Shown here in pieces: positions 14,756 to 47,466 of a stretch of DNA of 64,000 nt. Position 1 is the stretch's first letter; every line of letters starts with the position of its first letter. The notes under the pieces were generated by a model, which had not been told where the DNA came from, searched no databases, and saw only the letters and a program-made list of their open reading frames with translations. The stretch lies in the IMG/VR virus record IMGVR_UViG_3300045988_162908; one strand, given 5' to 3'. Position numbers and translations under genes: made by a program. This DNA comes from a virus.

Positions 14756-17557
14756 ATGAAAAAAATAGTGAAAGGAAATGACTTCACGCTGCGAATCCCA
14801 GTGATGAAGATGGTAGAGGGGACAGCTCAGGCTTTCCCTCTGCCAGCCTGTACCGACGTGCTGGTACAGGTGTGTAATCAGTTTAGGCGCATCCCTCTTG
14901 CATTTGAGATTGATGTAAAGGAGGACAATGTTCTCCTTGCGAGAGTAGAGGGTGACAAGATGAGCCTCGGAACTTACGCCATCGAGGTAAGGGGCAAAAT
15001 CTTCGGCAATGACTGGCGAAGCAACGAATATCCTCAGTTTTCCATTGTAGCTAAGAATGCCGATGCTGATACTGAATTTGGAGAGACTGACGAGGGCGAT
15101 AATAGCGTGGAGATGGATACCGCTATAGTCATCCTCCCTCCTTCCGTGGAATTGTCTGACCTCATCAATAAGGCGAATGATGCTCTCAAAACCAACAAGG
15201 AGACAAACGATACCCTCAATACTAACGAGGAAGCACGTAAGGAAGCAGAGGTGAAACGAGTATCTGCCGAGTCTGAGCGAGTATCTTCCGAACAGACGAG
15301 AGTATCTGCTGAGGATGCTCGCATGACGGCAGAGACCAGTCGTGTAAATGCGGAATCCGACCGAGAGCGAGCGGAAGATGCTCGTACCCAAATCGAGATT
15401 GAGCGACAGGCAAATGAACTTACACGCAAGGATAACGAGGCGAAGCGTATCAATGCTGAAACATTAAGGAACAATGCCGAGAAGTTGCGTGTCTTGCAAG
15501 AGAATGAGCGCAAGGGTAACGAGGACGTTCGTAAGTCAGATGAGGATGCACGTATCAAGGCTGAAAGCGCACGTAGCAAGGCTGAGACCAAGAGAGAGGA
15601 AGATTTCTCTGCATCAAAGGAAGCCGCTGACAACGCAACCGAAAAAGCTTTATCTACTTATTCCCACCCTCCTTATGCTGATAGCGATGGTTTCTATTAC
15701 AAGTGGAATCCTGACACGCAGAGTTACGACAAGACGGATGTGAACTTGAAGGCGCAGCCTAGCAAACCAGCCTTTGTCTTCAAGTCGGTTGAAGAAATGG
15801 AGACTACGGACATAAATAACTTCGACCTGTATGATTATGTTATCATCAATACCGACGATACAGAGGATGAGGACAATGCGAAGCTGTACCTCATAGACAA
15901 GAACGAGGATGGCACAAAATATTACCATTACCTTGTTGATATGAGTGGTTTCCGTGGATTTGCTGGCAAGACACCTCAAATCTCCATCGGAACGATTACC
16001 ACCCTACTTCCTAGCGAGAAGGCTAGTGTAGCCATGACCAGCGACGGTATGGATGAGCAAGGAAACCCCAAATACGTCATTAACTTCGCTATTCCGCAAG
16101 GACGGAAAGGCGATAAGGGTGATTCATTTTCTTACGCTGACTTCACGGCAGAGCAAATCGAGGAGCTACAAAAACCTGCTACTGATGTTATTGCAACACT
16201 TGGTCAGACCAAGGTGGATTGTGAGAATGCTACAAAGGCAGCAAACGATGCTGCTTCTGACGCTACCGTAGCTAAGACCAAGGCAGAGAACGCTGCTTCT
16301 GGGGCAGAGAAGTGTAACGTCATCCTTGAAGGCTCTACTATCTCTGTGACCAACAGACACGGAGAAACCGAGTCGGTAGATGTTATTAATACCGACGAGG
16401 AAGTAACCGTTACCATCGCCTCTTCTGTGGAATCTATCAAGGTGGCAGGCATTAAGATTAATGTGTTCCTCAATAACGGAAAGACACCTCAGAGCTATAC
16501 CACCAACGCAGAGGGTAAGGCTACATTCACTATTTATCGAGGAAACTACTATCAGGTCGTATTCCCTGAGTATGGCAATGCGCAGCCTATCGCTCCTCAA
16601 GGCTATACAGCAGTATTGGGCAGTCGTAATATCAATGTAGAATATCTGCCTTACGATGAAGACAGTATGGAGAAGGCGATTATCACGGTTACTAAGTACG
16701 ATAATAACGTGGGGACGGCATGGGAAGGTATTCCTGTTGTTGTGACCGTTGACAGAAAAGATACCACCTATCAAACTGACGCAAAAGGTCAGGTAACGGT
16801 ATTCGTACCATATAAGAAGGAATATACTGTAAGAATTGATAATCAGGATGGCTATAACGTTAGCTTTAACAAAAATTCAAGAACCAATACCGCGAATGTT
16901 CCTCAGAGACTTATCGACTACAGGTTCTATCAGTTTAAGGCAGGTATTTTTGTAGTAGATATTGACAAAAATGAGTACTACATCGAGGACTGGGTAGCAG
17001 CAGGCAAAACCGCTGATGATGCGGTAGCTATCAAGGTGGCGGATGCCTCATTATTAGTCAATCATGGTACTTTCTGTATCCGTACAAGTGACATTAAGAA
17101 CGTGTCGCAGTTGGTCAGTAAGCCATGGTGTACACAGAACTTGCAGTTCGATTCTATTGCGCTGAATGGTAATAATGTAAAAGATGCAAATTACTACAAC
17201 GGAGAATCTTCATCATACCTTATCAGACAGGAGGCTCAGGAGCGAAGTTTATCTGTGCCAGCTTTTGATTATGCCTACGATCAGATATTCACAATCGGTG
17301 ATGAAGAACTTCATGGATTTGTCATGTCGGTTGGTCAGGAATACGTACATGTAGCCAATATCGGTATCATCAAACAGGTGTTGGAAACCCTGTATGGCGA
17401 AGAAGTAGCTACTAATTATTACGACTTTGTGATGAAGAAATACAGATGGACTTCTACGCAGGGCAGCGCTACGAACGCTTGGACCTTCAGTAGTAGTGCA
17501 AGCAACTTCTACTCCAAGTGGTACGGTTCCGTGGTCCTGCCAGTTTACGCTTGTTAA
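14756..17557 (+). CDS. tail fibre / receptor-binding protein, DGR target (933 aa)
   Basis: Periodic AE..R coiled-coil repeats (about aa 150-290), a GRKGDKGD motif and two beta-sandwich-like segments. The C-terminal ...WTSTQGSATNAWTFSSSASNFYSKWYGSVVLPVYAC is the variable region matching the TR. Confidence 0.9.
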   Translation: MKKIVKGNDFTLRIPVMKMVEGTAQAFPLPACTDVLVQVCNQFRRIPLAFEIDVKEDNVLLARVEGDKMSLGTYAIEVRGKIFGNDWRSNEYPQFSIVAKNADADTEFGETDEGDNSVEMDTAIVILPPSVELSDLINKANDALKTNKETNDTLNTNEEARKEAEVKRVSAESERVSSEQTRVSAEDARMTAETSRVNAESDRERAEDARTQIEIERQANELTRKDNEAKRINAETLRNNAEKLRVLQENERKGNEDVRKSDEDARIKAESARSKAETKREEDFSASKEAADNATEKALSTYSHPPYADSDGFYYKWNPDTQSYDKTDVNLKAQPSKPAFVFKSVEEMETTDINNFDLYDYVIINTDDTEDEDNAKLYLIDKNEDGTKYYHYLVDMSGFRGFAGKTPQISIGTITTLLPSEKASVAMTSDGMDEQGNPKYVINFAIPQGRKGDKGDSFSYADFTAEQIEELQKPATDVIATLGQTKVDCENATKAANDAASDATVAKTKAENAASGAEKCNVILEGSTISVTNRHGETESVDVINTDEEVTVTIASSVESIKVAGIKINVFLNNGKTPQSYTTNAEGKATFTIYRGNYYQVVFPEYGNAQPIAPQGYTAVLGSRNINVEYLPYDEDSMEKAIITVTKYDNNVGTAWEGIPVVVTVDRKDTTYQTDAKGQVTVFVPYKKEYTVRIDNQDGYNVSFNKNSRTNTANVPQRLIDYRFYQFKAGIFVVDIDKNEYYIEDWVAAGKTADDAVAIKVADASLLVNHGTFCIRTSDIKNVSQLVSKPWCTQNLQFDSIALNGNNVKDANYYNGESSSYLIRQEAQERSLSVPAFDYAYDQIFTIGDEELHGFVMSVGQEYVHVANIGIIKQVLETLYGEEVATNYYDFVMKKYRWTSTQGSATNAWTFSSSASNFYSKWYGSVVLPVYAC
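17455..17549 (+). other. DGR variable region (VR)
   Basis: 95 nt that align to TR 18145-18236. There are 9 substitutions, all opposite TR adenines, plus one extra codon (tcc at 17513-17515). Confidence 0.9.
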
Positions 17558-17671
17558 TCTCTTTATCTCTTCAAAATCTCTTCCTCTCTCCATGTAAGCA
17601 GCGAGCAGGCAGCGAGCAATGAGCAGGGAGGAGGGATATAAGAGCAATTTTTAATTTCATTCCCTTAAAAA

Positions 17672-18289
17672 ATGGCATTTACAGAGGATTTGTACATATA
17701 TAAAGATACGCTACTCTTGTGCAAGATATTACTCAAGTATAGTAATAGCGTGAGTAGAACCGTCAGATTTACAACCTACAATGAAGCGGTCGTCAAGTCT
17801 TGTACAGCTCTTGACTTGGTTAGGAGAATTAATGAAAGTTGGGAGAATAGAGAGGAGCGTATGCACGATTATATTCTGCTTATGTCGGAAGTTAAGTCAA
17901 GGATCAGCCTCCTCACGGATGCCGAGTTCTTAAACAAGAAACAGGCAACTAACCTTAATATGATGTCAGACAAGGTACTGAAGGAGGTGTACGGCTGGCG
18001 GAAGTCTGAGCGGAAGCGCAAAGGCGAGAATTGCAGAGTCAACGACAATGCGAGAGTGCCGTCACTGGATGTGACAAGGGGTACAATCACGCAACTCACT
18101 TATGTGAGAAGTGAGCAGACTGAAAAACAGAGAATGTACCGAGATACGCAGAGCAGCGCTACGAACGCTTGGAACTACAGTAGTAGTGCAAACAACAACT
18201 ACAAGTGGAACAGTTACGTGGTCCTGCCAGTTTACGATTATCCAACAGTGACGAATGCCTCTGTATTTGCTATTTTTAAAGGGATATGA
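17672..18289 (+). CDS. avd: Avd-like accessory protein; the ORF continues through the TR
   Basis: The N-terminal ~115 aa are helical and basic (..EVYGWRKSERKRKGE), in the position of the DGR accessory variability determinant. The ORF has no stop until TGA 18287-18289, which overlaps the RT ATG. Confidence 0.7.
   Translation: MAFTEDLYIYKDTLLLCKILLKYSNSVSRTVRFTTYNEAVVKSCTALDLVRRINESWENREERMHDYILLMSEVKSRISLLTDAEFLNKKQATNLNMMSDKVLKEVYGWRKSERKRKGENCRVNDNARVPSLDVTRGTITQLTYVRSEQTEKQRMYRDTQSSATNAWNYSSSANNNYKWNSYVVLPVYDYPTVTNASVFAIFKGI
18145..18236 (+). other. DGR template region (TR)
   Basis: tacgcagagcagcgctacgaacgcttggaactacagtagtagtgcaaacaacaactacaagtggaacagttacgtggtcctgccagtttacg. AAC-rich and lies between avd and the RT. 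Confidence 0.9.
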
Positions 18290-19452
18290 AATTTGAAAGA
18301 GAATATGTTACGATAGAAGAGGTGTATGCCGCCTATTATGACTGCTGCAAGCATAAAGGTTCAACACCAGGTTGCATCGAATATCAGATGAACTACATTG
18401 CGAATAATTATCAGCTATATATCGAACTCAACTCGATGATATATGAGATAAGTAAGAGCAAGGCGTTTTGTGTGACGAGACCAAAGCTCAGGGAAGTGTT
18501 CTGTGCAGATTTCCGTGACCGCATCATTCACCATCTGCTTGCTATCAAGTTCACGGATATACTCGAAGGCGAAATGACAGATAAGGCGTATGCCTGCCGT
18601 AAGGGTAAGGGAACTGGTTATGGTATCGCTGATGTCAAGAAGCAAATAAAGCGAGTGAGCGATAACTATACTAAGGAAGCATGGATATTGAAAGGTGATT
18701 TACAGGGCTTCTTCATGAGCATCAATCGTTTACTCCTTTACGACCTCTTCGAAAAGGCCATCAGAAAAAAGTATCATGGAAGTGATATAGAATGGTGGCT
18801 GTGGCTATGGAAGAAAGTCGTCTTACATGACCCGACAAAGAACTGTGTTCGAGTAGGCGATTTGAGCTTGTGGGATAAGCTTCCTGCTAACAAGTCGCTT
18901 TTTACCTGCGGTGAGGGCAAGGGACTCCCGATCGGCAACCTGCCATCGCAATTACTTGCCAACCTTCTGCTATCTCGATTCGATAAGCTGATGATAGAGC
19001 GAGTGGGCGAAGATGGTGGATATGGCAGATATGTAGATGATTTTGTGGTTATCGGTAGGGATAAAAAGTTACTCCTGAATATTCTGCAAGAGGCAAGGAA
19101 CTATCTGTTAGAAGAGCTTGGTCTTACGTTGCATCCTCATAAGGTTAGCCTACAGAGAGCAGCGAGTGGAGTGAGGTTCACGGGCGTATTAATTCGTCCA
19201 GGCAGGACACTTCCAAACCAACGAACGATAGAACATCTATATGACGTGATTGATAGGTTCGGGATGGCGCCCAACCCTGAAGGTGAAGTATTACAGAGGT
19301 ATGCAAACCGCATCAACAGTCTGATGGGTATGCTTGCTCATTGCAATACTTATAACATTAGACGAAAAGCGTGGACTATGATGCCGCACAAAGACAGAGT
19401 TTTCTGCATAAATATGAAGAAAATTAGAATAATGAATAAATATAAAATGTAA
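18286..19452 (+). CDS. DGR reverse transcriptase
   Basis: GLPIGNLPSQLLANLLLSRFD and YGRYVDDFVVIG (YxDD) motifs. 388 aa. Confidence 0.9.
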   Translation: MKFEREYVTIEEVYAAYYDCCKHKGSTPGCIEYQMNYIANNYQLYIELNSMIYEISKSKAFCVTRPKLREVFCADFRDRIIHHLLAIKFTDILEGEMTDKAYACRKGKGTGYGIADVKKQIKRVSDNYTKEAWILKGDLQGFFMSINRLLLYDLFEKAIRKKYHGSDIEWWLWLWKKVVLHDPTKNCVRVGDLSLWDKLPANKSLFTCGEGKGLPIGNLPSQLLANLLLSRFDKLMIERVGEDGGYGRYVDDFVVIGRDKKLLLNILQEARNYLLEELGLTLHPHKVSLQRAASGVRFTGVLIRPGRTLPNQRTIEHLYDVIDRFGMAPNPEGEVLQRYANRINSLMGMLAHCNTYNIRRKAWTMMPHKDRVFCINMKKIRIMNKYKM

Positions 19453-20977: not shown

Positions 20978-21399
20978 TAGATAGAAAATGGAAGAAGGAG
21001 GGTTACACCATCAGCAAGGTGTATGTAGATGGCGAGGATTTCCACTGCAATTGCCTTGAGGACACCGACCGTGGATTGTATCAGGGCATGAGTACCGCGG
21101 ACGTGCTGGCTGTAAAGGAAAAAGGCAAGACTGCCATTCCGAGAGGCACCTACCATGTGATCTACACCTATTCCCCTCGTTTCAAGCGCCGCCTGCCCCT
21201 ATTAGAGAATGTCACTGGCTTTGCGGGCATCCGCATCCACCCCGGCAATTCGGCCAAGGACACCGAGGGCTGCCTGCTTTTTGGCAAGAACGACAAGGTG
21301 GGATGGCTCAGCGACTCAAAGCTTTGGACCCTTCGCATCATCGAGAAGATGAAGGAGGCTTGGGAACGCAAGGAGAAAGTCGTAATCACAATCCAATAA
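20965..21399 (+). CDS. YkuD-like / DUF5675-like protein, candidate cell-wall enzyme
   Basis: GIRIHPGNSAKDTEGCLLFG resembles the L,D-transpeptidase-fold H..G..C catalytic motif. Follows two membrane proteins. First ATG of ORF 20944..21399. Confidence 0.55.
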   Translation: MQILIDRKWKKEGYTISKVYVDGEDFHCNCLEDTDRGLYQGMSTADVLAVKEKGKTAIPRGTYHVIYTYSPRFKRRLPLLENVTGFAGIRIHPGNSAKDTEGCLLFGKNDKVGWLSDSKLWTLRIIEKMKEAWERKEKVVITIQ

Positions 21400-21586
21400 A
21401 GGTAAAAAAGTAAAAAAGTAAAAAAGTAAAAAGAGCATTTTTGCTCCAAGATGGACTTTTAAAAGTAAAAGGTAAAAAGGTAAAAATGGCAGGGATATAT
21501 ATTGCCCTACTGATTTTTTACCTTTTTACCTTTTTACTCTTTTACCTTTTTACCTTTAAAAGGCTCTTTTTACTTTTAAAATAGCG
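21398..21586. repeat. GGTAAAAA-family array A4, forward and inverted halves
   Basis: Forward copies at 21398-21445 and 21461-21487; inverted copies at 21514-21586. Lies between convergent genes and can form a very long hairpin. The inverted half encodes the lipoprotein C-terminus (..LKVKRAF). Confidence 0.85.
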
Positions 21587-22430: not shown

Positions 22431-22496
22431 TTTTTTACCCCTAAAATAGCAAGCCTGTTCTTTTTGCCTTTTTACTTTTTTACCTTTTTACCTTTT
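22431..22496 (-). repeat. GGTAAAAA-family array A5 (inverted orientation)
   Basis: ttttttacccctaaaatagcaagcctgttctttttgcctttttacttttttacctttttacctttt lies upstream of the lipoprotein gene. Confidence 0.8.
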
Positions 22497-39370: not shown

Positions 39371-39400
39371 CAGGAAGCGGCTATATACTGCTTCCTGTGA
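39371..39400. promoter_or_regulatory. perfect 10-bp-stem hairpin
   Basis: cacaggaagc-N10-gcttcctgtg, just upstream of the lipoprotein gene. Confidence 0.5.
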
Positions 39401-39441
39401 CAAAATATAAAACTAATAACATATTAAAGTCGAAAACTGAA

Positions 39442-40398
39442 ATGAAGAAGAAGAACTTTTTAGTGGCTGCTCTGATGATGGCAGCAAGCGTGATGTCCCT
39501 TACATCATGCAGCGAAAACGAAGTAATCAATCAGTCTGAAGAACAAGATCAGAGTGCAGACCATGGTAAGGTTGCGGTCAAGTTAGTCTGCTCCCCTACT
39601 CCATCGGTAACTTACACCCGTGCATCCATGACAGCGAATGGCAAGCAGCTCACGGATCTCTACATCCTTGACTACAACAAGGCAACCGGCAAACTGCTCC
39701 AGGTATTACACCAGACGAGCACGGCAGAAGACTTTGCCGAGCCTACGCTGAACCTCGATTACGGCAACCACATTTTCAAGGTGATTGCTACGAGAAGCGC
39801 ATCCCCTACCCTATTGGGTGAAGATGGCGCTTTATGGAACCTGCAGGAGAACACTGCTTTTGCGGTAGCCGATGATGGCAATGTGCCTGTAATATGGACG
39901 AGTGACAAGACCTCTGATAGTTTCGGAGCTTCGCAGGATGTCAATGTAGGCATAGGCAAGGACCAGACCATCCATATCCAGTTGGAGCGTATGGTAGCGA
40001 AATTGGTACTCAAGAATACGGGTACCTTTCCGGCTGATTGCAGCACCATCCAGTTGTCTCTCGACGAGTACAAGACCTGGAACTGGCAAAGCTTCTCCGT
40101 TATGGAAGCTGCAAAAAATCAGCGTATCTCTGACGCTTCGCAGTATGCTGGCCAAACGGGTAGTACTATTTCCTACTTCTTCCTGGCTCCTGATGGCGAT
40201 GGCTACACTACGGACATTTCTCTCCAGATGAACCGCAAGGATAGCAACGAGCCGTATGCTGCCTTCACCATCCCGAATGTGCGCCTCCAGCGTAACCGTA
40301 TCACTACCATAAGCGGTTCTTATTATGACCACCAGTCCGGCTTTTCCCTTACGGTAAATGATGCGTGGGAGGAAGAACAGAACAATGTAGAGTTTTGA
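39442..40398 (+). CDS. lipoprotein (fimbrillin-like fold is only a guess)
   Basis: MKKKNFLVAALMMAASVMSLTSC lipobox followed by acidic SENEV..SEEQDQ. The ATG at 39442 is preferred to the tracked 39397. Confidence 0.7.
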   Translation: MKKKNFLVAALMMAASVMSLTSCSENEVINQSEEQDQSADHGKVAVKLVCSPTPSVTYTRASMTANGKQLTDLYILDYNKATGKLLQVLHQTSTAEDFAEPTLNLDYGNHIFKVIATRSASPTLLGEDGALWNLQENTAFAVADDGNVPVIWTSDKTSDSFGASQDVNVGIGKDQTIHIQLERMVAKLVLKNTGTFPADCSTIQLSLDEYKTWNWQSFSVMEAAKNQRISDASQYAGQTGSTISYFFLAPDGDGYTTDISLQMNRKDSNEPYAAFTIPNVRLQRNRITTISGSYYDHQSGFSLTVNDAWEEEQNNVEF

Positions 40399-40454
40399 GT
40401 AAAGGTAAAAAGGTAAAAGAGTAAAAAGGTAAAAAGAGCATTCTTGCTTTTACC
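40399..40454 (+). repeat. GGTAAAAA-family array A6 with AGAGCATTCTTGCT core
   Basis: gtaaaggtaaaaaggtaaaagagtaaaaaggtaaaaagagcattcttgcttttacc. Confidence 0.85.
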
Positions 40455-40502
40455 GAGGATAAAGCGTGCGGATATGCTATTATGGAATTGCATATTCGCA
40501 CG

Positions 40503-40592
40503 TTTCCATTATACCATATTACCATAATCAAAGATTTCCATAACAACAGATTTCCATAATTCAACGTTCATGCAAGAGTATCATTCCATAAA
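40503..40592 (+). repeat. TTCCATAA direct repeats (centromere-like)
   Basis: gatttccataa at 40533-40543 and 40549-40559. Related copies at 40503-40513 and 40582-40592. Confidence 0.6.
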
Positions 40593-40633
40593 CCCACAAA
40601 CACACAAACGTGCATATATTTATGCGTTTATGG

Positions 40634-40673
40634 ATTTATGTATTTGTTGATTTCAATATACAAATACATAAAT
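40634..40673. repeat. 13-bp perfect inverted repeat
   Basis: atttatgtatttg (40634-40646) and caaatacataaat (40661-40673). Confidence 0.8.
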
Positions 40674-40838
40674 CAACGTAGAAACATACACACTCATACA
40701 TATAGAAATACATTCATACACCAACGAAGAAATAAACACATTAAGCAATAAAAGAATGAATAAATACACTAATACATATACAAATGAACTAATAAATGAA
40801 GAAATTTACGCATAAAAGCATTAAATATTTTAAATTTG

Positions 40839-40870
40839 TTTGGCGGTTTAAATTTAATTTCTTAAATTTG
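40839..40870 (+). promoter_or_regulatory. canonical Bacteroidota promoter upstream of parA
   Basis: TTTG 40839-40842, 20 nt spacer, TAAATTTG 40863-40870. acacaaacgtgcat occurs on both sides (40602-40615 and 40898-40911). Confidence 0.6.
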
Positions 40871-41034
40871 CAGTCATAAAAGCACAAAAACATAAAAACA
40901 CAAACGTGCATTTGTATATTTGTGTATTCATGCACTTATGTGTATGCAGATTAGTGGATGTGTGTATTCGTGTATTGTTTCCTGCATTGTCAGGCTAAAG
41001 AGAAGATAATAATAAATAACCAAAAATATAAGTT

Positions 41035-41910
41035 ATGGCAGAAACAAGATTGAAAGAAATCCTCGCCTTCGTAAATCACAAGGGAGGAGTTGGTAAGACA
41101 ACAACAGTTCAGAGTTTGGCAACAGGTCTTCGTCGTTACGGCAAAGGTCATTTCGGTTTGGGTAAAGATGGCAAGGAGCGCAAGCCTCGCATCCTGCTAA
41201 TTGACCTTGACCCCCAGTCAAGTCTCTCCTTCCTCTTTGGATGGAGTGAGGCAGAGAATGCCGGGCAGCCTACCGTATATGATGCGATGATACAGCAGTC
41301 TCGTTTGCCTGTCTATCAGGTAAGAGAGGGCATATATCTCGCTCCTGCATCTTACAGATTGATCAACATCGAGCCTTTCCTCAACCAGATGCCGGTACCA
41401 CGCAAGGCTTTGTTTAAGCTATTCAGTAAGCCGATGACGGAAGTTCGAGGCGACGAATTGACAACGGAAGGAGTTTCATCTATCCTGGAGGCTTTCGATT
41501 ACGTTCTGATAGACTGCCCCCCAGCGTTATCTCTGCTTACGCATAATGCCCTATCGGTTGCATCGGGCGTGGTAATACCTATCCAGCTCGAAATGCTGGC
41601 AACAAAAGGTATTGCTGAAATTCTGAATGCGGTGCAGGAAACTCGTGAAGACTTGAATCCTGATATTGATATTCGCGGTTTGTTCATGGTAATGAGCAAT
41701 GATCAGACAAGAGCCACTAAGCAGTTTAAGGAGTATCTGGGCAATAAGTTTGATGACTATATGTTTGATTCATACACTCGTCGAGATACGAAGATGGTGG
41801 AGGCACAAGCCCTCAATCAGGATATATTCTCTTATTCGCCTTATTGCAGGGTAGGACAAGACTATGAGAATTTTACGAAAGAGATATTGGCCAGTATGCC
41901 GAAAGATTAA
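41035..41910 (+). CDS. parA: ParA-family partition ATPase
   Basis: Deviant Walker A NHKGGVGKTTT. 291 aa. Has ..LIDCPPAL.. and the overall ParA/Soj layout. Confidence 0.9.
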   Translation: MAETRLKEILAFVNHKGGVGKTTTVQSLATGLRRYGKGHFGLGKDGKERKPRILLIDLDPQSSLSFLFGWSEAENAGQPTVYDAMIQQSRLPVYQVREGIYLAPASYRLINIEPFLNQMPVPRKALFKLFSKPMTEVRGDELTTEGVSSILEAFDYVLIDCPPALSLLTHNALSVASGVVIPIQLEMLATKGIAEILNAVQETREDLNPDIDIRGLFMVMSNDQTRATKQFKEYLGNKFDDYMFDSYTRRDTKMVEAQALNQDIFSYSPYCRVGQDYENFTKEILASMPKD

Positions 41911-41958
41911 GGCACCGGACGTTATAGATAATGTATCATTTTAAAAAGAAACATAGAT

Positions 41959-42366
41959 ATGGCAAGACAAGCATCGAATAATTTGAATAAGTTTAAAGGA
42001 CTGGAAGACTCTCCAGCCATCCAAGGTATAGAAAGAATTTATGAGGCTAACGAGGAAGCTCACCAAAAGCGAGTTGCCGAAGCTTTGGAACAACAGCAGA
42101 ACGGACAGGGTACCGCAGAGACGGACACTATGTCACAGACTGATGCACCTTCGCACTCTCCGGTCCCTCCTGTATCATCTGCCCCTATTTCTACTCCCGA
42201 ACCTGCTCCAGCGAAAAAAACTGGCAAGAAGACTCAGAACGGCATCACTATCTATGTGCCGATGAACTACTACATGCAGATATTACAGATGAAGATGGAG
42301 ACGGGTGTTCCTATTAAGGATATTGCCCTGCAAGCTGTCATCGAGTACCTGAATAGACATAAATAA
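41959..42366 (+). CDS. ribbon-helix-helix centromere-binding protein (ParG/CopG-like)
   Basis: Disordered P/S/T-rich N-terminus. C-terminal GITIYVPMNYYMQILQMKMETGVPIKDIALQAVIEYLNRH fits strand-helix-helix. Directly follows parA. Confidence 0.6.
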   Translation: MARQASNNLNKFKGLEDSPAIQGIERIYEANEEAHQKRVAEALEQQQNGQGTAETDTMSQTDAPSHSPVPPVSSAPISTPEPAPAKKTGKKTQNGITIYVPMNYYMQILQMKMETGVPIKDIALQAVIEYLNRHK

Positions 42367-42400
42367 AGGTAAAAGGGCAAAAGAGTAAAAAGGCTTTTGC
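42365..42400 (+). repeat. GGTAAAAA-family array A7
   Basis: aaaggtaaaagggcaaaagagtaaaaaggcttttgc. Confidence 0.75.
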
Positions 42401-42422
42401 TGGTAAATGAAAAGTCAGATTT
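42401..42422 (+). repeat. iteron, isolated forward copy
   Basis: tggtaaatgaaaagtcagattt. Confidence 0.8.
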
Positions 42423-42433
42423 CTACCTTCTGA

Positions 42434-42472
42434 GGTACCGAAAACTATACCCCTCGGCACTATTTCGGTACC
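42434..42472. repeat. 10-bp perfect inverted repeat in the origin region
   Basis: ggtaccgaaa-N19-tttcggtacc. Confidence 0.8.
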
Positions 42473-42528
42473 AACTCACTACATTTGTGGCTAAGTTTAG
42501 GCGAAATCCTACTAAATCATTTTACCTT

Positions 42529-42550
42529 CAATCTGACTTTTCGTTTACCA
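42529..42550 (-). repeat. iteron, inverted copy
   Basis: caatctgacttttcgtttacca is the exact reverse complement of the 22-mer. Confidence 0.85.
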
Positions 42551-42647
42551 AAAAATGAAAACTTTAAATAGAAAATTATAAGATTATAGATATTATATAT
42601 ATTAGGAAAATCTTAATAGTTTGGTTTTCAGACACTTACAAAGTTAC
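42551..42647. other. AT-rich stretch (candidate DNA-unwinding element)
   Basis: aaaaatgaaaactttaaatagaaaattataagattatagatattatatatattagg... lies between the inverted iteron and the iteron array. Confidence 0.5.
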
Positions 42648-42779
42648 TGGTAAACGAAAAGTCAGATTGTGGTAAACGAAAAGTCAGATTGTGGTAAATG
42701 AAAAGTCAGATTGTGGTAAACGAAAAGTCAGATTGTGGTAAACGAAAAGTCAGATTGTGGTAAACGAAAAGTCAGATTT
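42648..42779 (+). repeat. six tandem 22-bp iterons (origin of replication)
   Basis: tggtaaacgaaaagtcagattg x6, head to tail with no spacers (copy 3 has c->t). Ends 3 nt before the rep ATG. Confidence 0.9.
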
Positions 42780-42782
42780 GAT

Positions 42783-44075
42783 ATGATTGATGATAATGAA
42801 AACAAGGGTTTAGCCTGGATAAATACTCCTTTTTCACTCACGAAACTGGATAGACAATACTCTCTTTTTCAGCAAAATGTGTTGATGATAACAAGCACGC
42901 ACCTACAGAAGTTTGTAGATGAGTACTTTTTAGAGAAAAGGCAGTTGGGCGATGCTCGTTCTGATTTTCTTTTTGAGCAAGGCGTGGACCATGCTGTGAT
43001 GAATATCCCGCCTATTAAGATAGACATCCATGATTTCATTACTTGCGAGAATATGAGCTATCAGAAGTTGAGATCGGAGCTAAAGACAAGCATTCTCGAT
43101 ATGACGGTGAAGAGTACGCTGCCCGATGGTAGCGATGAGTTTGCTCATATATTCAGCCGCATGAGTATTCCGTCATCGAAGAACGGATATACGACTAAGG
43201 ACGGAAAGAAGGTGAACCGCATATTGGGATATATCACGCTTGAGATTGATCCGAAACTTTCTAAGCGGGTGTTTGATATGGGACAGGGGTATATTCACCA
43301 TATATCTATGATAGCTAAGTTTGCTAAGAATGTGAATACCCCTCGTGTCTATATCTATCTTTTGCGACAGATAGGATTGAGCAGGAGTATGGATATAGCC
43401 GTACCCTTCCTGGAGCTGAAATCTTATCTTGGTTTAGTGGAACTTGATTGTAATAAGAAAGAAATCTTAAAGAATGAATCTGGAGAGCCTGTTATGAACA
43501 AATATCCTAAATTTTCTCAGTTTAGAAAGCAAGTTCTTGATGTGGTATGCAGAGATTTGCAGAGAATGGAAAAGCTATCCCAGACAGATATTGTGTTTGA
43601 CGAATTGAAAGATGAGGATATTATCTATAAATCGGGTAAACGGAAAGGTGATCCGGACTTCATCAGATTTCGCGTGAAGCGCACAGTAGTAGGTGAGAAT
43701 CATTTATCTAAGGATAAAAATACCGATATTGCCGCTACTCTGAATGAGCGATACAAGCAGAACAGCGTACAGAAGACCGGGAAACTGGTAGAGGGTGATA
43801 TATTCGCCCATGTGCATCAGCCTACGGAAAGCAAGATTATAACCGAGAGCGGACAGGGTACCGACAAGTGGAAGGCTTTCTGTAAGCTCATTATAGGCGA
43901 CGCTGAAAAATCACTGGTTTCCCGCATTTCCTTTGTCGGTATGAAGAACGACAGGTTCTGCGTGGAGTGCAGCGATGAGGACTTTGATATGCTTCGAAAG
44001 TTGGGCATCGAGGAAAAAGCTAAGGAGTTCTTTGACTGCAAAGGTTCTTTTGCACCAGTATTCTACCGAGGGTAG
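42783..44075 (+). CDS. plasmid-type replication initiator (Rep_3/RepB-like guess)
   Basis: The ATG at 42783 lies just after the iterons; the tracked GTG start 42735 is inside them. N-terminal ..AWINTPFSLTKLDRQYSLFQQNVLMITSTHL resembles iteron-binding initiators. The position is the strongest evidence. Confidence 0.6.
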   Translation: MIDDNENKGLAWINTPFSLTKLDRQYSLFQQNVLMITSTHLQKFVDEYFLEKRQLGDARSDFLFEQGVDHAVMNIPPIKIDIHDFITCENMSYQKLRSELKTSILDMTVKSTLPDGSDEFAHIFSRMSIPSSKNGYTTKDGKKVNRILGYITLEIDPKLSKRVFDMGQGYIHHISMIAKFAKNVNTPRVYIYLLRQIGLSRSMDIAVPFLELKSYLGLVELDCNKKEILKNESGEPVMNKYPKFSQFRKQVLDVVCRDLQRMEKLSQTDIVFDELKDEDIIYKSGKRKGDPDFIRFRVKRTVVGENHLSKDKNTDIAATLNERYKQNSVQKTGKLVEGDIFAHVHQPTESKIITESGQGTDKWKAFCKLIIGDAEKSLVSRISFVGMKNDRFCVECSDEDFDMLRKLGIEEKAKEFFDCKGSFAPVFYRG

Positions 44076-44079
44076 TCCT

Positions 44080-44250
44080 AAAGGTAAAAAAGTAAAAAGG
44101 TAAAAAGGTAAAAAGAGCCTGGCGGGATATTGCTGTTCTTTTTACCTTTTGCCTTTTATAGCAAGAATATTCTTTTTACTCTTTTACCTTTTTACTCTTA
44201 TCAGCAAGAATGTTCTTTTTACCTTTTTACTCTTTTACCTTTTTACCTTT
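44080..44250. repeat. GGTAAAAA-family array A8, forward and inverted halves
   Basis: Forward 44080-44117; inverted 44136-44250, including two agcaagaatRttcttttt cores. Confidence 0.85.
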
Positions 44251-44257
44251 AAAATTC

Positions 44258-44322: not shown

Positions 44323-44934
44323 ATGAAACGGAAAGAGATTATACTACTACTGATGATGTCGGTAGTGATGGTGCTTACAGGCTGCGCTTCTTCTCGTCGA
44401 GTGACTGATATGAGTCACCAGGAAGTGAAGGACAGCATGAGGACAGAGCAGACGGATAGTGTACGCAAGACGGTGGTATCATCGGATAGCGTGCAGAAAA
44501 GTACACAATCGACGGTGCAGGTATCGTCTTCCACTACTGAAGGTGATAGCCTCTCTGAAACCATCCATGAGCTGATAACTGAGACCACGGATGCGCAAGG
44601 CAACAAGACGACCACCACGGATAGGACTATCCAGCGCAATTATGGCTCACAGAAACAAAGCAGTTCTCAGTTAACTGCCAACCACCAACGGCATGAAATT
44701 AAACAGATGCAGCAGAGCGTGGATAGTATTGCACTAAGCGATAAGCGTGATGTGGGTACACACTGGGCAATCAACGACAGTTTATCGGATAGGCAGGAGA
44801 AGAATACGGAAGATGTCAAAAGACAGTCTTTCATTGAAAAAGCATCCAAGAATGCCTTCGCTCTATTCGTCATTCTGGTCATCGTTCTGGTACTTACATC
44901 ATTCAAAAAACATACAGACAATGGGAAAGGGTAA
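44323..44934 (+). CDS. lipoprotein with C-terminal TM helix (203 aa)
   Basis: ..MVLTGCASS lipobox, S/T/Q-rich body, ..AFALFVILVIVLVLTSF near the C-terminus. Confidence 0.65.
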   Translation: MKRKEIILLLMMSVVMVLTGCASSRRVTDMSHQEVKDSMRTEQTDSVRKTVVSSDSVQKSTQSTVQVSSSTTEGDSLSETIHELITETTDAQGNKTTTTDRTIQRNYGSQKQSSSQLTANHQRHEIKQMQQSVDSIALSDKRDVGTHWAINDSLSDRQEKNTEDVKRQSFIEKASKNAFALFVILVIVLVLTSFKKHTDNGKG

Positions 44935-45981: not shown

Positions 45982-46674
45982 TTATTTATCATCGTGCATC
46001 AGTGGGTCGGCAGCCATACCGACATTGCCAGAGCCATATCTTGCATCAGTCATGCTGAGTATGCGGTGGGTGAGGGTGGCAATCTCTCGTTGCTGTTCTG
46101 CAATGAGCGTCTGTTGCCCTGCCATCTGTTTCTGTTGCTCTGCGATAATATCGAGCATCTTGTTAAGCGTTGATAGGCTCACGTCTGATTCCTTTTCTGG
46201 AAGAGACTGATTGATGAAAGCATGATGAGCAGATGATGACTGATGGATGTCTCCAGTCTGAACATTCTGCCTATAGGCCTTGATGTTTGTCAGTCCGGGT
46301 ATGATGGATTTCATGCGATCCACATCCATAGGATCACGCAGGGCACGACCGCCGTTAGGTCGTCTCTCATTTTGTGAGATATAGCCGCCATTCGGTTCAA
46401 ACTGGTCATTAATGTCTGGTTGCACATAGTCAAGTTCATCTATGCTTTTATCGTATTTAGCATCCGTATCAACGATGAAAGCGGTGATAGGTACCTGGAA
46501 CGTATTGCAGAATCGCAGGAGTTGGATAGTAGGGATAGGGGCTTTCATTCTTTCCCAATTACCCAGCCTCGTATTGCTTGTTGTACCTATGGCATGAAGA
46601 ATCTGCCTATCCGTAATATCTCTATTCGCTTTTATCCATTTTTCGAGGAAGCTATAATTATAACAATATTTCAT
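45982..46674 (-). CDS. HTH regulator with C-terminal coiled coil (repressor-like)
   Basis: ATG at Met14 of ORF 45982..46713. ..ITDRQILHAIGTTSNTRLGNWERMKAPIPTIQLLRFCNTFQVPITAF is HTH-like. Q-rich ..IIAEQQKQMAGQQTLIAEQQREIATL. Divergent from 46842. Confidence 0.65.
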   Translation of the reverse strand: MKYCYNYSFLEKWIKANRDITDRQILHAIGTTSNTRLGNWERMKAPIPTIQLLRFCNTFQVPITAFIVDTDAKYDKSIDELDYVQPDINDQFEPNGGYISQNERRPNGGRALRDPMDVDRMKSIIPGLTNIKAYRQNVQTGDIHQSSSAHHAFINQSLPEKESDVSLSTLNKMLDIIAEQQKQMAGQQTLIAEQQREIATLTHRILSMTDARYGSGNVGMAADPLMHDDK

Positions 46675-46729
46675 ATCACTAATAATTAAAAAGGTGAATA
46701 ACTCTAAAAACACACTCTAAACTAAATAT

Positions 46730-46782
46730 TATACGTAACCTATGTTAAATTCCCCTAATTTTAAAAGAAAAATATACGTAAC
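46730..46782 (+). repeat. two TATACGTAAC boxes (operator candidates)
   Basis: 46730-46739 and 46773-46782. The second abuts the -33 of the rightward promoter. Confidence 0.55.
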
Positions 46783-46783
46783 G

Positions 46784-46815
46784 TTTGTTTATTTCAATTT
46801 TAATCTTTAAATTTG
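46784..46815 (+). promoter_or_regulatory. canonical Bacteroidota promoter
   Basis: TTTG 46784-46787, 20 nt spacer, TAAATTTG 46808-46815, 27 nt before ATG 46842. Confidence 0.65.
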
Positions 46816-46841
46816 CAACAAATTTAAGAAATTTAATTGAA

Positions 46842-47351
46842 ATGACAAAGGAAATTATAGAAAAAGTTACGCAGCAGAACAATTCGTTAGACGTTAACGA
46901 CCTAAATGCTGAAGAGAAGAAGAATTTAGCTGAGTTTTTATCGGCTAAGGGCTTCACTGACTCTACTTTTTACCTTCGATTCTTTCAGAAAGGTTTCGAT
47001 GCTTGGGAAATTCTGGGTATTAATAACTGTAAAAGTCAGTTTTTAGGTATGCCTGATATAGGTAAGGTATTACTTGAGTACGTAGAGCGTGATGCCTTGG
47101 GTAACGAGATAGGCGATAAGGGTTATCTCTATACTCTTGCCCAGAGTGATAAGCCGGGTGTATTTTATGCCTGTTTGAAGCAGGCAGCAAACGGCTTATG
47201 TATGAAACTCTACTCCTTCATGGAGGAACGAGGTATGAGTCGTACCACCATCATCAAGCGTTTCTCGTCTGATGACTGGAAAGAGTGGGAAAAGGTAGGC
47301 ATCAAAGCCTTGCTGGAAGAGTTCTTAAAAGGTAAAAAAGTAAAAGAGTAA
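46842..47351 (+). CDS. hypothetical protein (169 aa)
   Basis: The ATG after the promoter is preferred to the tracked 46785. Its last residues, LKGKKVKE, are encoded by repeat array A9. Confidence 0.6.
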   Translation: MTKEIIEKVTQQNNSLDVNDLNAEEKKNLAEFLSAKGFTDSTFYLRFFQKGFDAWEILGINNCKSQFLGMPDIGKVLLEYVERDALGNEIGDKGYLYTLAQSDKPGVFYACLKQAANGLCMKLYSFMEERGMSRTTIIKRFSSDDWKEWEKVGIKALLEEFLKGKKVKE

Positions 47352-47466
47352 AAAGGTAAAAAGCAGTCTTACTGAAAAAGGTAAAAACCTCGCATGAATC
47401 CAGGGAACAAGGAAAAGAAGCAGGAATGCTCTTTTTACCTTTTTACCTTTTTACTTTTTTACTTTT
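47327..47466. repeat. GGTAAAAA-family array A9, forward and inverted halves
   Basis: Forward 47327-47387; inverted 47421-47466 (gcaggaatgctctttttacctttttacctttttacttttttactttt). Confidence 0.85.

What the first reader, a model, noticed from the sequence alone, without database searches (positions are those of the whole stretch)
40453..44075. Plasmid-type partition and iteron-replication module inside a virion-encoding genome (phage-plasmid signature)
One contiguous, co-oriented stretch contains a repeat-rich centromere-like region with a consensus promoter, a ParA ATPase (KGGVGKTT) and an RHH ParG-like protein. It continues with an origin built from eight copies of a 22-bp iteron plus an AT-rich segment, and an initiator gene starting 3 nt after the last iteron. 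The same window encodes tail fibres, a DGR, a lysis-like cassette, two HTH repressor-type switches and phage replication proteins. No integrase is visible. That combination is what defines P1/N15-type phage-plasmids: a carrier state as a low-copy episome rather than an integrated prophage. To my knowledge this lifestyle is poorly documented for Bacteroidota phages.
Basis: partly seen in the sequence, partly recalled or inferred. Interest (0 to 1): 0.75.

Follow-up and report, generated by a model that had tools for sequence, protein, structure and literature searches.

The report
Plasmid maintenance module in Segatella phage
A roughly 107-kb tailed phage of the human gut bacterium Segatella (Prevotella) copri has no integrase. 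It carries a complete plasmid-type partition and replication cassette related to that of its host's own plasmids, so it most likely persists in cells as a low-copy plasmid.

Summary
Window 40.4-44.3 kb contains, co-oriented:
- a centromere/operator of 8-bp-phased repeats around a Bacteroidota-type promoter
- a small Soj/ParF-like ParA
- a partner protein with a disordered N-terminal tail and a C-terminal ribbon-helix-helix
- an origin with eight 22-bp iterons and a 15% GC stretch
- an initiator of the pi/RepE winged-helix class, starting 3 nt after the last iteron

The window is part of a 107,254-bp circular-map genome. That genome encodes a portal, prohead protease, tape measure, tail fibres, a DGR, a holin and an endolysin. 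No integrase or protelomerase was detected anywhere in it. It is never joined to chromosomal DNA in hundreds of assemblies.

The module sits at the same position in all 71 related viral contigs in which that region is intact. The par and ori-rep parts occur as interchangeable specificity cassettes, and each initiator type has its own iterons. The closest Rep relatives are in plasmids and large extrachromosomal elements of cultured Segatella copri.

Best reading: a P1-like, circular phage-plasmid family of Segatella. This is a new member of a known kind. The plasmid state itself is inferred, not shown.

The parts
40400..40448 (+). (AAAGGTAA)n repeat ending in a weak hairpin. It is the left boundary of the exchangeable par cassette and the left arm of a 49-nt, 98% inverted repeat with 44203-44251.
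   Evidence: (I1); the homology breakpoint to relatives with another par type falls at about 40380-40440
40453..40586 (+). 16-bp-phased TTTCCATAA-type repeats, forming the distal part of the centromere-like region
   Evidence: the same repeat is present in relative L034
40587..40838 (+). Array of 8-bp-phased units. Palindromic block 1 (CAyAAAnn x3 | TTTrTGnn x4-5) is centred on AAACGTGCAT at 40607-40616, followed by A-rich phased units. Putative centromere (partition site).
   Evidence: lag-8 autocorrelation 0.552, z about 10; the repeat motif changes with the type of centromere-binding protein in relatives
40839..40870 (+). Bacteroidota-type promoter of the par operon (TTTG, 20 nt, TAAATTTG)
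   Evidence: 8 sites in the window against 1.5 expected; conserved at the same place in relatives
40875..40975 (+). Palindromic block 2 of 8-bp units, centred on AAACGTGCAT at 40903-40912, just downstream of the promoter. Putative operator and centromere.
   Evidence: (D4, D7)
41035..41910 (+). parA: a small Walker-type partition ATPase (291 aa). The deviant Walker A motif KGGVGKTT is at residues 16-23, and there is no N-terminal HTH domain.
41959..42366 (+). Centromere-binding protein (135 aa). It has a conserved N-terminal MARQ...IE.IY helix, a Pro/Glu/Gln-rich disordered linker, and a C-terminal ribbon-helix-helix (residues about 95-133).
   Evidence: pRN1 ORF56 RHH, E 0.018; top fold matches are CopG, Arc, PutA and CdbA, all RHH, but not significant
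42364..42403 (+). (AAAGGTAA)-type repeat and small hairpin after the par operon
42402..42421 (+). Isolated direct iteron (1 mismatch)
   Evidence: (D3)
42421..42529 (.). Origin-proximal segment conserved across all Rep types. It holds single copies resembling the iterons of two other Rep clades (42435-42454 and 42477-42497) and a DnaA-box-like TTAGCCACA (42486-42494, minus strand).
   Evidence: function unknown
42529..42550 (-). Inverted iteron (22/22 match). It marks the left edge of the exchangeable ori-rep cassette.
   Evidence: (I22)
42558..42625 (.). AT-rich stretch (14.7% GC), the putative DNA-unwinding element
42648..42779 (+). Six tandem 22-bp iterons, TGGTAAACGAAAAGTCAGATTG
   Evidence: (98% matches, score 255)
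42783..43854 (+). rep, N-terminal about 357 residues: the WH1-WH2 iteron-binding part. It is exchanged together with the iterons.
   Evidence: (R6K pi, E 1.1e-5)
43855..44075 (+). rep, C-terminal about 73 residues: a domain (GMKNxRFCVECSDEDF...SFAPVFYRG) conserved across Rep clades of this phage group and in Segatella plasmid Reps. It is a putative contact with a host replication factor.
   Evidence: weak fold resemblance to DnaA domain I and DciA
44076..44251 (.). Strong hairpin (44076-44165, -30.6 kcal/mol, z -4.4) and inverted (AAAGGTAA)n repeats. Terminator-like right boundary of the module.

Best explanation
The stretch is the plasmid-maintenance module of a circular phage-plasmid. The host is inferred to be the Segatella copri complex.

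**Partition (type Ib-like).**
- The RHH protein binds the arrays of 8-bp-phased repeats that surround the par promoter. These arrays would serve as both centromere and operator.
- The protein's flexible N-terminal tail stimulates the small ParA ATPase.
- ParA on the nucleoid then moves the copies apart at cell division.

**Replication (iteron type).**
- Rep monomers bind the six 22-bp iterons through two winged-helix domains.
- This opens the adjacent 15% GC stretch.
- The conserved C-terminal domain recruits host replication proteins.
- Because the iterons abut the start codon, Rep binding should also repress rep. The two outlying iterons would allow handcuffing, keeping copy number low.

**Lytic growth.** This would use the phage's own replication genes (clamp, primase, exonuclease and a 1229-aa protein).

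**Shown and inferred.**
- Shown here: the anatomy, the family assignments, the phage nature of the replicon, the lack of any detectable integrase, the circular map, conservation across the phage family, and Rep-iteron and CBP-repeat co-variation.
- Inferred: DNA binding, autoregulation, copy-number control and the plasmid carrier state itself.
For: **Module anatomy and statistics:**

**ParA:**

**CBP as an RHH protein with a ParG/omega-like layout:**

**Rep belongs to the pi/RepE/RctB class.**
- The profile hits 2nra at 1.1e-5.
- 16 of 19 homologues carry Pfam Rep3_C and 3 of 19 carry Rep3_N.
- The ten best fold matches are all iteron initiators.

**The same replicon type runs real plasmids.**
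- Rep is 57% identical to the Rep of the circular 58.9-kb plasmid of S. copri DSM 18205.
- That plasmid has the same ParA, small ORF and Rep order, and 7 x 22-bp iterons ending 4 nt before its ATG.
- Other relatives sit on complete 'plasmid' or 'extrachromosomal' records of 40-317 kb in Segatella.

**Phage identity.**
- Tape measure at 7.6e-26 and prohead protease at 1e-20.
- Portal.
- Holin and S49 protease.
- GH108 endolysin.
- Tail proteins and the DGR.
- CI-like repressor.

**No integrase, recombinase or protelomerase** appears in the Pfam tables or scans covering the whole genome.

**Circle of 107,254 bp**, obtained from two independent assemblies.

**No link to chromosomal DNA.** The exact ParA occurs in 216 collection blocks. 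The longest contigs are 50-200 kb in 82 of them, and none exceeds 200 kb. Three other genes show the same pattern.

**Conservation.** The module is present at the same position in 71 of 71 related IMG/VR loci where the region is not cut off. These include a clade with only 46-58% identical neighbouring genes.

**Specificity co-variation.**
- At least 8 iteron sequences each go with their own Rep type.
- The repeat motif changes with the CBP type.
- There are at least 20 par-type x rep-type combinations, with sharp exchange breakpoints.
Against: - No direct observation of a plasmid state. The phage was not found as a replicon in a cultured isolate: PLSDB and the GTDB species representatives hold only plasmid relatives of Rep plus one 4.5-kb MAG contig.
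- No read-depth, Hi-C or long-read data could be examined.
- No toxin-antitoxin addiction module and no dimer-resolution recombinase (such as P1 Cre) was detected.
- The genome has nucleotide-metabolism and replisome genes typical of large virulent phages.
- Rep-iteron specificity swapping also occurs at lytic origins of lambdoid phages (from memory), so that feature alone does not prove plasmid replication.
- The query Rep itself does not reach any Pfam or NCBIfam threshold. Its assignment rests on profile and fold evidence of moderate strength (E about 1e-5 and 1e-3; model pLDDT 71).
- The terminase was not identified.
Confidence: 0.75

Rival explanations
1. The phage is strictly virulent or only pseudolysogenic. 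Rep and the iterons are its (early) lytic origin, like lambda O/ori. ParA and its partner have another role, such as positioning replicating genomes or interfering with resident plasmids.
For: - No carrier state was observed.
- The genome holds a large set of replication and nucleotide-metabolism genes.
- No addiction module or dimer resolvase was found.
- N-terminal-domain/iteron swapping with a constant C-terminal domain is also the lambdoid O-protein pattern (from memory).
- Some par-carrying SPO1-like phages are doubtful phage-plasmids (PMC7969092).
Against: - A complete par locus with a long centromere/operator array only pays off in dividing cells.
- par cassettes diversify and reassort independently of rep, as expected under partition incompatibility between co-resident elements.
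- Rep and its C-terminal domain are shared with plasmids that have no phage genes, so the initiator works with host factors.
- A CI-like repressor is present.
- The phage has separate replisome genes that could serve lytic replication.
Confidence: 0.15
2. The element is a plasmid, or a defective element, that keeps phage-derived genes (tailocin- or transfer-agent-like) and no longer makes infectious virions.
For: - Terminase and major capsid protein were not identified by any profile.
- Cargo-like genes are present: KAS/ACP, LysR and acetyltransferases.
Against: - Portal, prohead protease, tape measure, tail proteins, holin and endolysin are all intact and conserved across more than 100 contigs.
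- An active-looking DGR targets a tail protein, with mismatches only at template adenines.
- Genome size is uniform at 101-110 kb across assemblies.
- The genes have few database relatives in general, so missing hits are weak evidence.
Confidence: 0.05
3. The phage is an ordinary integrating temperate phage whose integrase is too divergent to detect, and the par/rep module is a passenger.
For: Many genes of this genome have no detectable family.
Against: - Tyrosine and serine recombinases are among the most readily detected families, and none appears in Pfam tables or PHROG scans of the whole genome.
- No contig longer than 200 kb carries any of four tested genes, across hundreds of assemblies.
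- Contigs are circular permutations of each other and often break at the iterons rather than at a fixed attachment site.
- The module is universal in the family, which is unlike a passenger.
Confidence: 0.04
4. The window is an assembly chimera of a phage and a plasmid.
For: None beyond the a priori possibility.
Against: - The same gene order on both sides of the module recurs in 50 + 80 IMG/VR loci and in many ENA assemblies made with different assemblers.
- Two assemblies are 100% identical to the window over 11-21 kb.
Confidence: 0.01

Closest known systems
Bacteriophage P1 plasmid prophage (parABS plus repA/oriR with iterons)
   Same: Both are circular tailed-phage genomes of about 100 kb with no chromosomal integration. 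Both have a ParA-type partition locus next to an iteron-controlled initiator and origin, separate functions for lytic replication, and repressor control. P1 facts are from memory and from PMC10983915.
   Different: - P1 uses a type Ia system: a large ParA with an HTH, an HTH ParB, and parS downstream. Here there is a small ParA, an RHH protein and an upstream repeat array (type Ib-like).
- No Cre/lox-like recombinase and no Phd/Doc-like addiction module was detected here.
- There is no sequence relationship to P1, and the host phylum is different.
Type Ib partition systems: TP228 ParF/ParG/parH and pSM19035 delta/omega
   Same: - Small Walker ParA. It hits ParF 4dzz and delta 2oze, but is closer to Soj.
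- The partner has a disordered N-terminal tail and a C-terminal RHH.
- The centromere lies upstream of the operon, overlaps the promoter and is built of many short phased repeats. TP228 uses 4-bp boxes with 4-bp spacers, an 8-bp period, and omega uses 7-bp heptads (from memory).
   Different: - There is no detectable sequence similarity of the small protein to ParG or omega.
- The repeat motifs differ.
- The arrays here are much longer (about 400-500 bp).
- Binding and ATPase stimulation are untested.
Iteron initiators of the Rep_3 / WH1-WH2 class (R6K pi, F RepE, pPS10 RepA, Vibrio RctB core)
   Same: Profile and fold matches. Both have tandem 22-bp iterons beside an AT-rich stretch, and iterons overlap the start of rep, which suggests autoregulation.
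   Different: - This Rep is about 100-150 residues longer.
- It has an extra conserved C-terminal domain not present in pi or RepE.
- It falls below the Pfam threshold itself.
- No clear DnaA box cluster was found.
Plasmids and large extrachromosomal elements of the Segatella copri complex (Blanco-Miguez 2023, PMC10635906; NZ_CP085934, CP137558, CP137560, CP146525, CP152485)
   Same: Homologous Rep at 43-58% identity, sharing the C-terminal domain. The order is the same (ParA, small ORF, 22-bp iterons, Rep) and the iterons abut the ATG.
   Different: Those replicons carry metabolic and other cargo, and no virion genes are annotated in the one inspected. The paper does not mention phages.
Extrachromosomal prophages of cluster A mycobacteriophages with parABS in place of an integrase
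   Same: Both are temperate phages lacking an integrase and relying on a partition cassette. Several par specificities exist that confer incompatibility (from memory; also mentioned in PMC7969092).
   Different: - Those use a ParB-type system and have no dedicated plasmid initiator module.
- In that group par alternates with an integrase at the same locus. Here no family member with an integrase was seen (71/71 have par-rep).
crAssphage (Carjivirus communis) proposed as a phage-plasmid (PMC10983915)
   Same: A Bacteroidota gut phage that persists without integration.
   Different: It is an unrelated podovirus with a linear genome. That paper does not mention iterons and mentions partition only in describing P1.

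Membership tests
Type Ib (ParF/ParG-like) plasmid partition locus | Small Walker-type ParA with deviant Walker A and no N-terminal DNA-binding domain | tested here: met
   The protein is 291 aa. The AAA_31 match starts at residue 8, and KGGVGKTT is at residues 16-23. It matches Soj at 1.3e-26, and also delta and ParF, and PHROG ParA-like at 1.1e-49.
Type Ib (ParF/ParG-like) plasmid partition locus | Centromere-binding partner is a ribbon-helix-helix dimer with a flexible N-terminal tail | tested here: inconclusive
   - The profile hits the RHH protein ORF56 of pRN1 at E 0.018.
- The AF2 model shows an extended segment followed by two helices at 102-133 after a disordered linker.
- All top fold matches are RHH proteins, but with E > 1.
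- No similarity to ParG itself was detected. Dimerisation is not testable here.
Type Ib (ParF/ParG-like) plasmid partition locus | Centromere of short repeated boxes upstream of the operon, overlapping its promoter | tested here: met
   8-bp-phased arrays at 40587-40975 flank the promoter at 40839-40870. The motif co-varies with the partner protein type in relatives.
Type Ib (ParF/ParG-like) plasmid partition locus | Partner protein binds the repeats and stimulates ParA ATPase; the locus stabilises an unstable replicon | not testable with these tools
   Needs EMSA or footprinting, ATPase assays and plasmid-stability assays.
Iteron-type theta replicon with a Rep_3 (WH1-WH2) initiator | Initiator with two winged-helix domains homologous to pi/RepE/RepA | tested here: met
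   - The profile of 19 homologues hits pi 2nra at E 1.1e-5.
- Rep3_C is found in 16/19 homologues and Rep3_N in 3/19.
- The Foldseek top 10 are pi, RctB and RepE (E 8e-4 to 6e-2).
- The query alone is below Pfam thresholds.
Iteron-type theta replicon with a Rep_3 (WH1-WH2) initiator | Tandem direct repeats of about two helical turns next to rep, specific for the cognate Rep | tested here: met
   6 x 22 bp plus 2 outliers. Each Rep clade in relatives has its own 21-22-bp repeat.
Iteron-type theta replicon with a Rep_3 (WH1-WH2) initiator | AT-rich unwinding element adjacent to the iterons | tested here: met
   42558-42625 is 14.7% GC, against 42.6% for the window.
Iteron-type theta replicon with a Rep_3 (WH1-WH2) initiator | DnaA boxes in the origin (present in many but not all such replicons) | tested here: inconclusive
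   There is one 8/9 match (TTAGCCACA, 42486-42494) in the origin. Window-wide counts are not above chance.
Iteron-type theta replicon with a Rep_3 (WH1-WH2) initiator | Supports autonomous replication | not testable with these tools
   Indirect support only: homologous modules are the only annotated initiators on complete circular Segatella plasmids.
Phage-plasmid (sensu Pfeifer et al. 2021, PMC7969092) | Virion, packaging and lysis genes on the same replicon as plasmid replication and/or partition genes | tested here: met
   Portal, protease, tape measure, tail proteins, holin and endolysin lie on the same 107,254-bp circle as the par-rep module. The terminase was not identified.
Phage-plasmid (sensu Pfeifer et al. 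2021, PMC7969092) | No integration machinery and no integrated copies | tested here: met
   No integrase, recombinase or protelomerase in any table or scan. No contig over 200 kb carries the genes.
Phage-plasmid (sensu Pfeifer et al. 2021, PMC7969092) | Vertical inheritance as a plasmid and horizontal spread as a virion, both observed | not testable with these tools
   Needs culture, long-read or Hi-C data and virus-particle sequencing.
N15-type linear phage-plasmid | Protelomerase and a linear plasmid with hairpin ends | tested here: not met
   No protelomerase family was hit in any scan. Contigs are circular permutations that close a 107,254-bp circle.

The most novel reading that the evidence does not exclude
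The par locus and the ori-rep(N-terminal) unit may be two adjacent 'specificity cassettes'. They would be continually reshuffled among a widespread family of Segatella phage-plasmids and exchanged with the host's own plasmids and large extrachromosomal elements.

- The driver would be incompatibility between co-resident replicons.
- The single copies of other clades' iterons, kept in every origin, would be functional. They could act as decoys or handcuffing sites against competitors, or let the genome be replicated by a co-resident relative's Rep.
- The Rep C-terminal domain would be a fixed adaptor to a host replication factor.

If so, this is a natural combinatorial incompatibility system linking phages and plasmids of a major, genetically intractable gut bacterium.
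Probability: 0.3. Interest if true: 0.8.

Novelty: new member of a known kind. Interest (0 to 1): 0.6.

Why it matters
- A common phage that is likely maintained as a plasmid would change how its 'virulent versus temperate' status is scored. Tools that look for integrases would call it virulent.
- It would also change how its abundance in bulk metagenomes is read.
- It would link phage evolution directly to the large extrachromosomal elements found in most S. copri strains.
- The 3.8-kb module, with defined promoter, centromere, iterons and initiator, is a ready candidate for a stable shuttle vector in Segatella.
- The many natural par and rep specificity types would offer compatible vector sets and a natural system for studying incompatibility.

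Tried and rejected
- **DNA similarity of the module to GenBank phages.** No match. Rep protein against those phages also gave no match. No deposited cultured phage is informative.
- **Direct family scans.** Pfam, NCBIfam and PHROG scans of Rep and of the small protein gave nothing above threshold. Their assignments needed profiles and models.
- **Sigma-70 promoter and intrinsic-terminator scan.** Counts equal chance. The promoter is of the Bacteroidota type, and the hairpins are GC-poor repeat hairpins.
- **DnaA boxes.** Not enriched.
- **Structure prediction of the small protein with locus-derived homologues.** It was redone with database homologues of low diversity, so the model is only moderate.
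- **Major capsid protein and terminase.** PHROG, NCBIfam, Pfam and tblastn on the 433-, 605-, 667- and 969-aa proteins identified only the portal.
- **Search for the phage in cultured isolates via NCBI-sourced cluster members.** The records could not be reached.
- **Spurious ORFs.** Two ORFs first used as queries (L064:263-1228 and 1229-2119) proved to be spurious frames opposite the tape-measure gene.
- **Repeats as the crossover points.** I considered whether the (AAAGGTAA)n repeats are where cassettes exchange.
  - This fits the left edge of the par cassette.
  - It does not fit the rep cassette, whose edges lie at the inverted iteron and inside rep.
- **Integrase in a sister clade.** I considered whether a sister clade carries an integrase at this locus, as in mycobacteriophages. 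It does not; all have par-rep.
- **Literature.** Searches found no description of this phage family. The library lacks most subscription journals.

Full report
**1. What is in the sequence**

The stretch 40.4-44.3 kb holds three co-oriented genes and two repeat-rich non-coding regions.

Upstream of the first gene lies a 580-bp region of 28% GC.
- Its core (40587-40980) has the strongest 8-bp periodicity in the whole window. Lag-8 autocorrelation is 0.552, against 0.309 +/- 0.023 in dinucleotide shuffles.
- The core contains two imperfect palindromes built from CAyAAAnn units and their inverse. Both are centred on AAACGTGCAT (40607-40616 and 40903-40912).
- Between them sits a Bacteroidota-type promoter, TTTG-N20-TAAATTTG, at 40839-40870. 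It is one of 8 such sites in the window, against 1.5 expected.

The first gene (41035-41910) encodes a 291-aa ParA.
- It has the deviant Walker A motif KGGVGKTT and no N-terminal DNA-binding domain.
- It matches Pfam AAA_31 at 8.9e-36 and PHROG 'ParA-like partition protein' at 1.1e-49.
- Among solved structures it matches Soj at 1.3e-26, and also delta of pSM19035 and ParF.

The second gene (41959-42366) encodes a 135-aa protein.
- Its homologues share an N-terminal MARQ...IE.IY segment, a variable Pro/Glu/Gln-rich linker, and a conserved C-terminal strand-helix-helix pattern.
- A profile of these homologues hits the RHH protein ORF56 of pRN1 at E 0.018.
- The AlphaFold model has a disordered linker followed by helices 102-115 and 119-133.
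- Every top fold match is an RHH protein (CopG, YiiF, PutA, Arc, CdbA), though none is statistically significant for so small a domain.

The origin region follows.
- One direct iteron lies at 42402-42421.
- A conserved segment spans 42421-42529.
- One inverted iteron lies at 42529-42550.
- A 14.7% GC stretch lies at 42558-42625.
- Six tandem copies of TGGTAAACGAAAAGTCAGATTG lie at 42648-42779.
- The rep ATG at 42783 comes 3 nt after the last repeat unit.

**2. The initiator**

Rep (430 aa) hits no Pfam, NCBIfam or PHROG model on its own. Three other lines place it in the WH1-WH2 iteron-initiator class.
- 16 of 19 homologues at 33-77% identity carry Pfam Rep3_C (the WH2 domain), and 3 carry Rep3_N.
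- A profile of the 19 hits the R6K pi protein (2nra) at E 1.1e-5.
- The ten best structural matches of the model (pLDDT 71) are pi, RctB, RepE and a Rep-DUE complex.

Rep also has an extra C-terminal domain of about 80 residues (GMKNxRFCVECSDEDF...SFAPVFYRG). This is the most conserved part of the alignment. It shows a weak fold resemblance to DnaA domain I and DciA, which I treat only as a lead.

**3. The replicon is a phage**

The window is 100% identical over 11-21 kb to ENA contigs from independent assemblies.

Two separate calculations give the same circle of 107,254 bp.
- The window bridges the two ends of ERZ2664398 NODE_2 (107,314 nt, implying a terminal overlap of about 60 nt).
- ERZ960386 k127_9916 joins the window's end to its start through 43,254 bp.

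The 43 kb outside the window was read from related contigs. Together with the window, the genome encodes:
- a 1849-aa tape measure protein (7.6e-26) and an S49 prohead protease (1e-20)
- a portal, related to that of Polaribacter phage Leef_1 at 3e-17
- a holin and a GH108 endolysin
- tail fibre and minor tail proteins
- a DGR whose variable region is the C-terminus of a 933-aa tail protein, with mismatches at template adenines
- a CI-like repressor
- a beta clamp, primase and exonuclease, and several methylases

No integrase, serine recombinase or protelomerase appears in the precomputed Pfam tables or in my scans, which together cover the whole circle. The terminase and major capsid protein were not identified.

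**4. Never attached to a chromosome**

The exact ParA sequence occurs in 216 blocks of the assembly collection.
- In 82 blocks the longest contig carrying it is 50-200 kb. In none is it longer.
- Three other genes behave the same way.
- Contig lengths cluster at 101-110 kb.
- Contigs start at different points. Several break exactly at the iteron array, as expected for a circular genome linearised at a repeat.

**5. Conservation and co-variation**

Searching IMG/VR with Rep and with the neighbouring exonuclease gave 130 loci.
- In all 71 exonuclease-selected loci where the region is not cut by a contig end, ParA, the small protein and Rep are present. They lie in the same order and at the same position.
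- This includes a clade whose flanking genes are only 46-58% identical.

Rep occurs in many types that are 23-42% identical to the window's Rep. Each type has its own 21-22-bp (in one case 43-bp) repeat array.

ParA and its partner occur in at least four types.
- The phased repeat motif upstream changes with the partner's RHH sequence. It is CAyAAA in type I, GTAC-containing units in types II and III, and ATTTAT in type IV.
- Types II and III share nearly the same RHH sequence.

Par types and Rep types combine freely, with at least 20 combinations.

Exchange breakpoints are sharp.
- The par cassette runs from about 40.40 to about 42.5 kb.
- The ori-rep cassette runs from the inverted iteron (about 42.53 kb) to nt 43855, inside rep.
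- The iterons and the winged-helix part therefore move together, while the C-terminal domain stays.

This is the pattern expected when binding specificity is under diversifying pressure. It supports the view that both proteins bind the adjacent repeats.

**6. Link to host plasmids**

Rep relatives in genomes are almost confined to the Segatella copri complex and Prevotella.
- They sit on complete 'plasmid' or 'extrachromosomal' records of 40-317 kb.
- These include the large extrachromosomal elements described by Blanco-Miguez et al. (PMC10635906).

The circular 58.9-kb plasmid of the type strain DSM 18205 matches the module closely.
- It has ParA, a small ORF, seven 22-bp iterons ending 4 nt before the ATG, and a Rep 57% identical to the window's.

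In a neighbour-joining tree the window's Rep nests among these plasmid Reps, away from the other phage Rep types. Plasmids and this phage group also share the C-terminal domain. That argues the domain contacts a host factor rather than a phage factor.

The host assignment to Segatella is an inference. It rests on these relatives, the Bacteroidota promoter, a 92% identical Rep contig binned with a Prevotella MAG, and a repeat shared with the S. hominis element.

**7. Interpretation**

The best explanation is a circular phage-plasmid. It would have a type Ib-like partition locus and an iteron replicon for the carrier state, and phage replication genes for lytic growth.

It works like P1, but it is not related to P1 and differs in par type. 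It lacks a detectable Cre-like resolvase and an addiction module. It is not N15-like.

The main rival is a non-lysogenic phage that uses Rep and the iterons as a lytic origin. I cannot exclude this, because nobody has observed the carrier state, and lambdoid O/ori pairs show similar specificity swapping. Three features fit it poorly:
- a universal, independently diversifying partition locus
- an initiator shared with phage-free plasmids
- a CI-like repressor

**8. Novelty**

Phage-plasmids, type Ib partition and Rep_3 replicons are all known, so this is a new member of a known kind.

In the library searched I found no description of this phage family or of a par/iteron phage-plasmid in Segatella.
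- Pfeifer et al. note that such elements are likely missed in Bacteroides for lack of profiles.
- The only Bacteroidota case found is crAssphage.

The combinatorial cassette exchange, the heterologous single 'iterons' in every origin and the exchange with host plasmids are the parts that could prove more than routine.

Noticed in passing
window 2773, 6370, 7678, 21398-21557, 22462-22495, 40401-40434, 42365, 44080-44250, 47328-47466: A dispersed family of (AAAGGTAA)n repeats, often paired as inverted copies that form long GC-poor hairpins. There are 37 matches to an 18-mer against 0.12 expected, and 44076-44165 folds at -30.6 kcal/mol. They sit at gene ends, often starting inside the last codons (...KGKKVKE*), and bracket functional modules. 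A 51-nt stretch is 92% identical to the 317-kb S. hominis extrachromosomal element. They may be terminators, or a host-shared repeat element that promotes recombination.
   Followed up: partly
window 42421-42529, and the equivalent region of L010-L058: Every origin, whatever its Rep type, keeps one or a few copies resembling the iterons of other Rep types. In the window these are at 42435-42454 and 42477-42497, and the latter contains a DnaA-box-like TTAGCCACA. The segment is 80-84% identical across Rep clades. They could be relics of cassette exchange, host-factor sites, or cross-acting decoy sites.
   Followed up: partly
window 43855-44075 (Rep residues about 358-430): The C-terminal domain of Rep is conserved across otherwise 34-42% identical Rep clades and in Segatella plasmid Reps, but is replaced in the more distant phage clade. 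It shows a weak fold resemblance to DnaA domain I and DciA. It may be the adaptor to the host helicase or its loader.
   Followed up: partly
window 14756-19452: A complete DGR. The variable region (17455-17552) is at the C-terminus of a 933-aa tail protein, and the template repeat is at 18145-18239 with differences at template adenines. Avd is at 17672-18289 and the reverse transcriptase at 18286-19452.
   Followed up: partly
window 6441-7679 and the small gene after it (about 7.7-7.95 kb): A beta-ketoacyl-ACP synthase and an acyl carrier protein are encoded in the middle of the block of large virion-type genes. A LysR regulator and several acetyltransferases lie elsewhere in the genome. This cargo is unusual for a phage.
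   Followed up: no
window 39397-40398 and 44323-44934: Both genes flanking the module begin with lipoprotein signal peptides (…LTSCSE, …LTGCASS) and are among the most variable genes between relatives (28-97% identity). They are candidates for surface or exclusion proteins expressed in the carrier state.
   Followed up: no
window 45982-46849: The only minus-strand gene near the module (243 aa, weak HTH-regulator hit) is transcribed divergently from 46785-47351. Two back-to-back Bacteroidota-type promoters lie at 46784-46815 (+) and 46819-46849 (-). The layout looks like a genetic switch.
   Followed up: partly
L266 (NZ_JAVSCC010000001.1, 2621248-2630522): A plasmid-type Rep (58% identical, the same type as in the DSM 18205 plasmid) lies inside a 3.14-Mb contig of S. 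copri H-2632. This is either an integrated plasmid or a misassembly.
   Followed up: no
whole genome (window plus L059-L064, L146, L199): Most large proteins of this common gut phage family (969, 667, 433, 362 and 347 aa) have no hit in PHROGs, Pfam or NCBIfam. The terminase and major capsid protein remain unidentified.
   Followed up: partly
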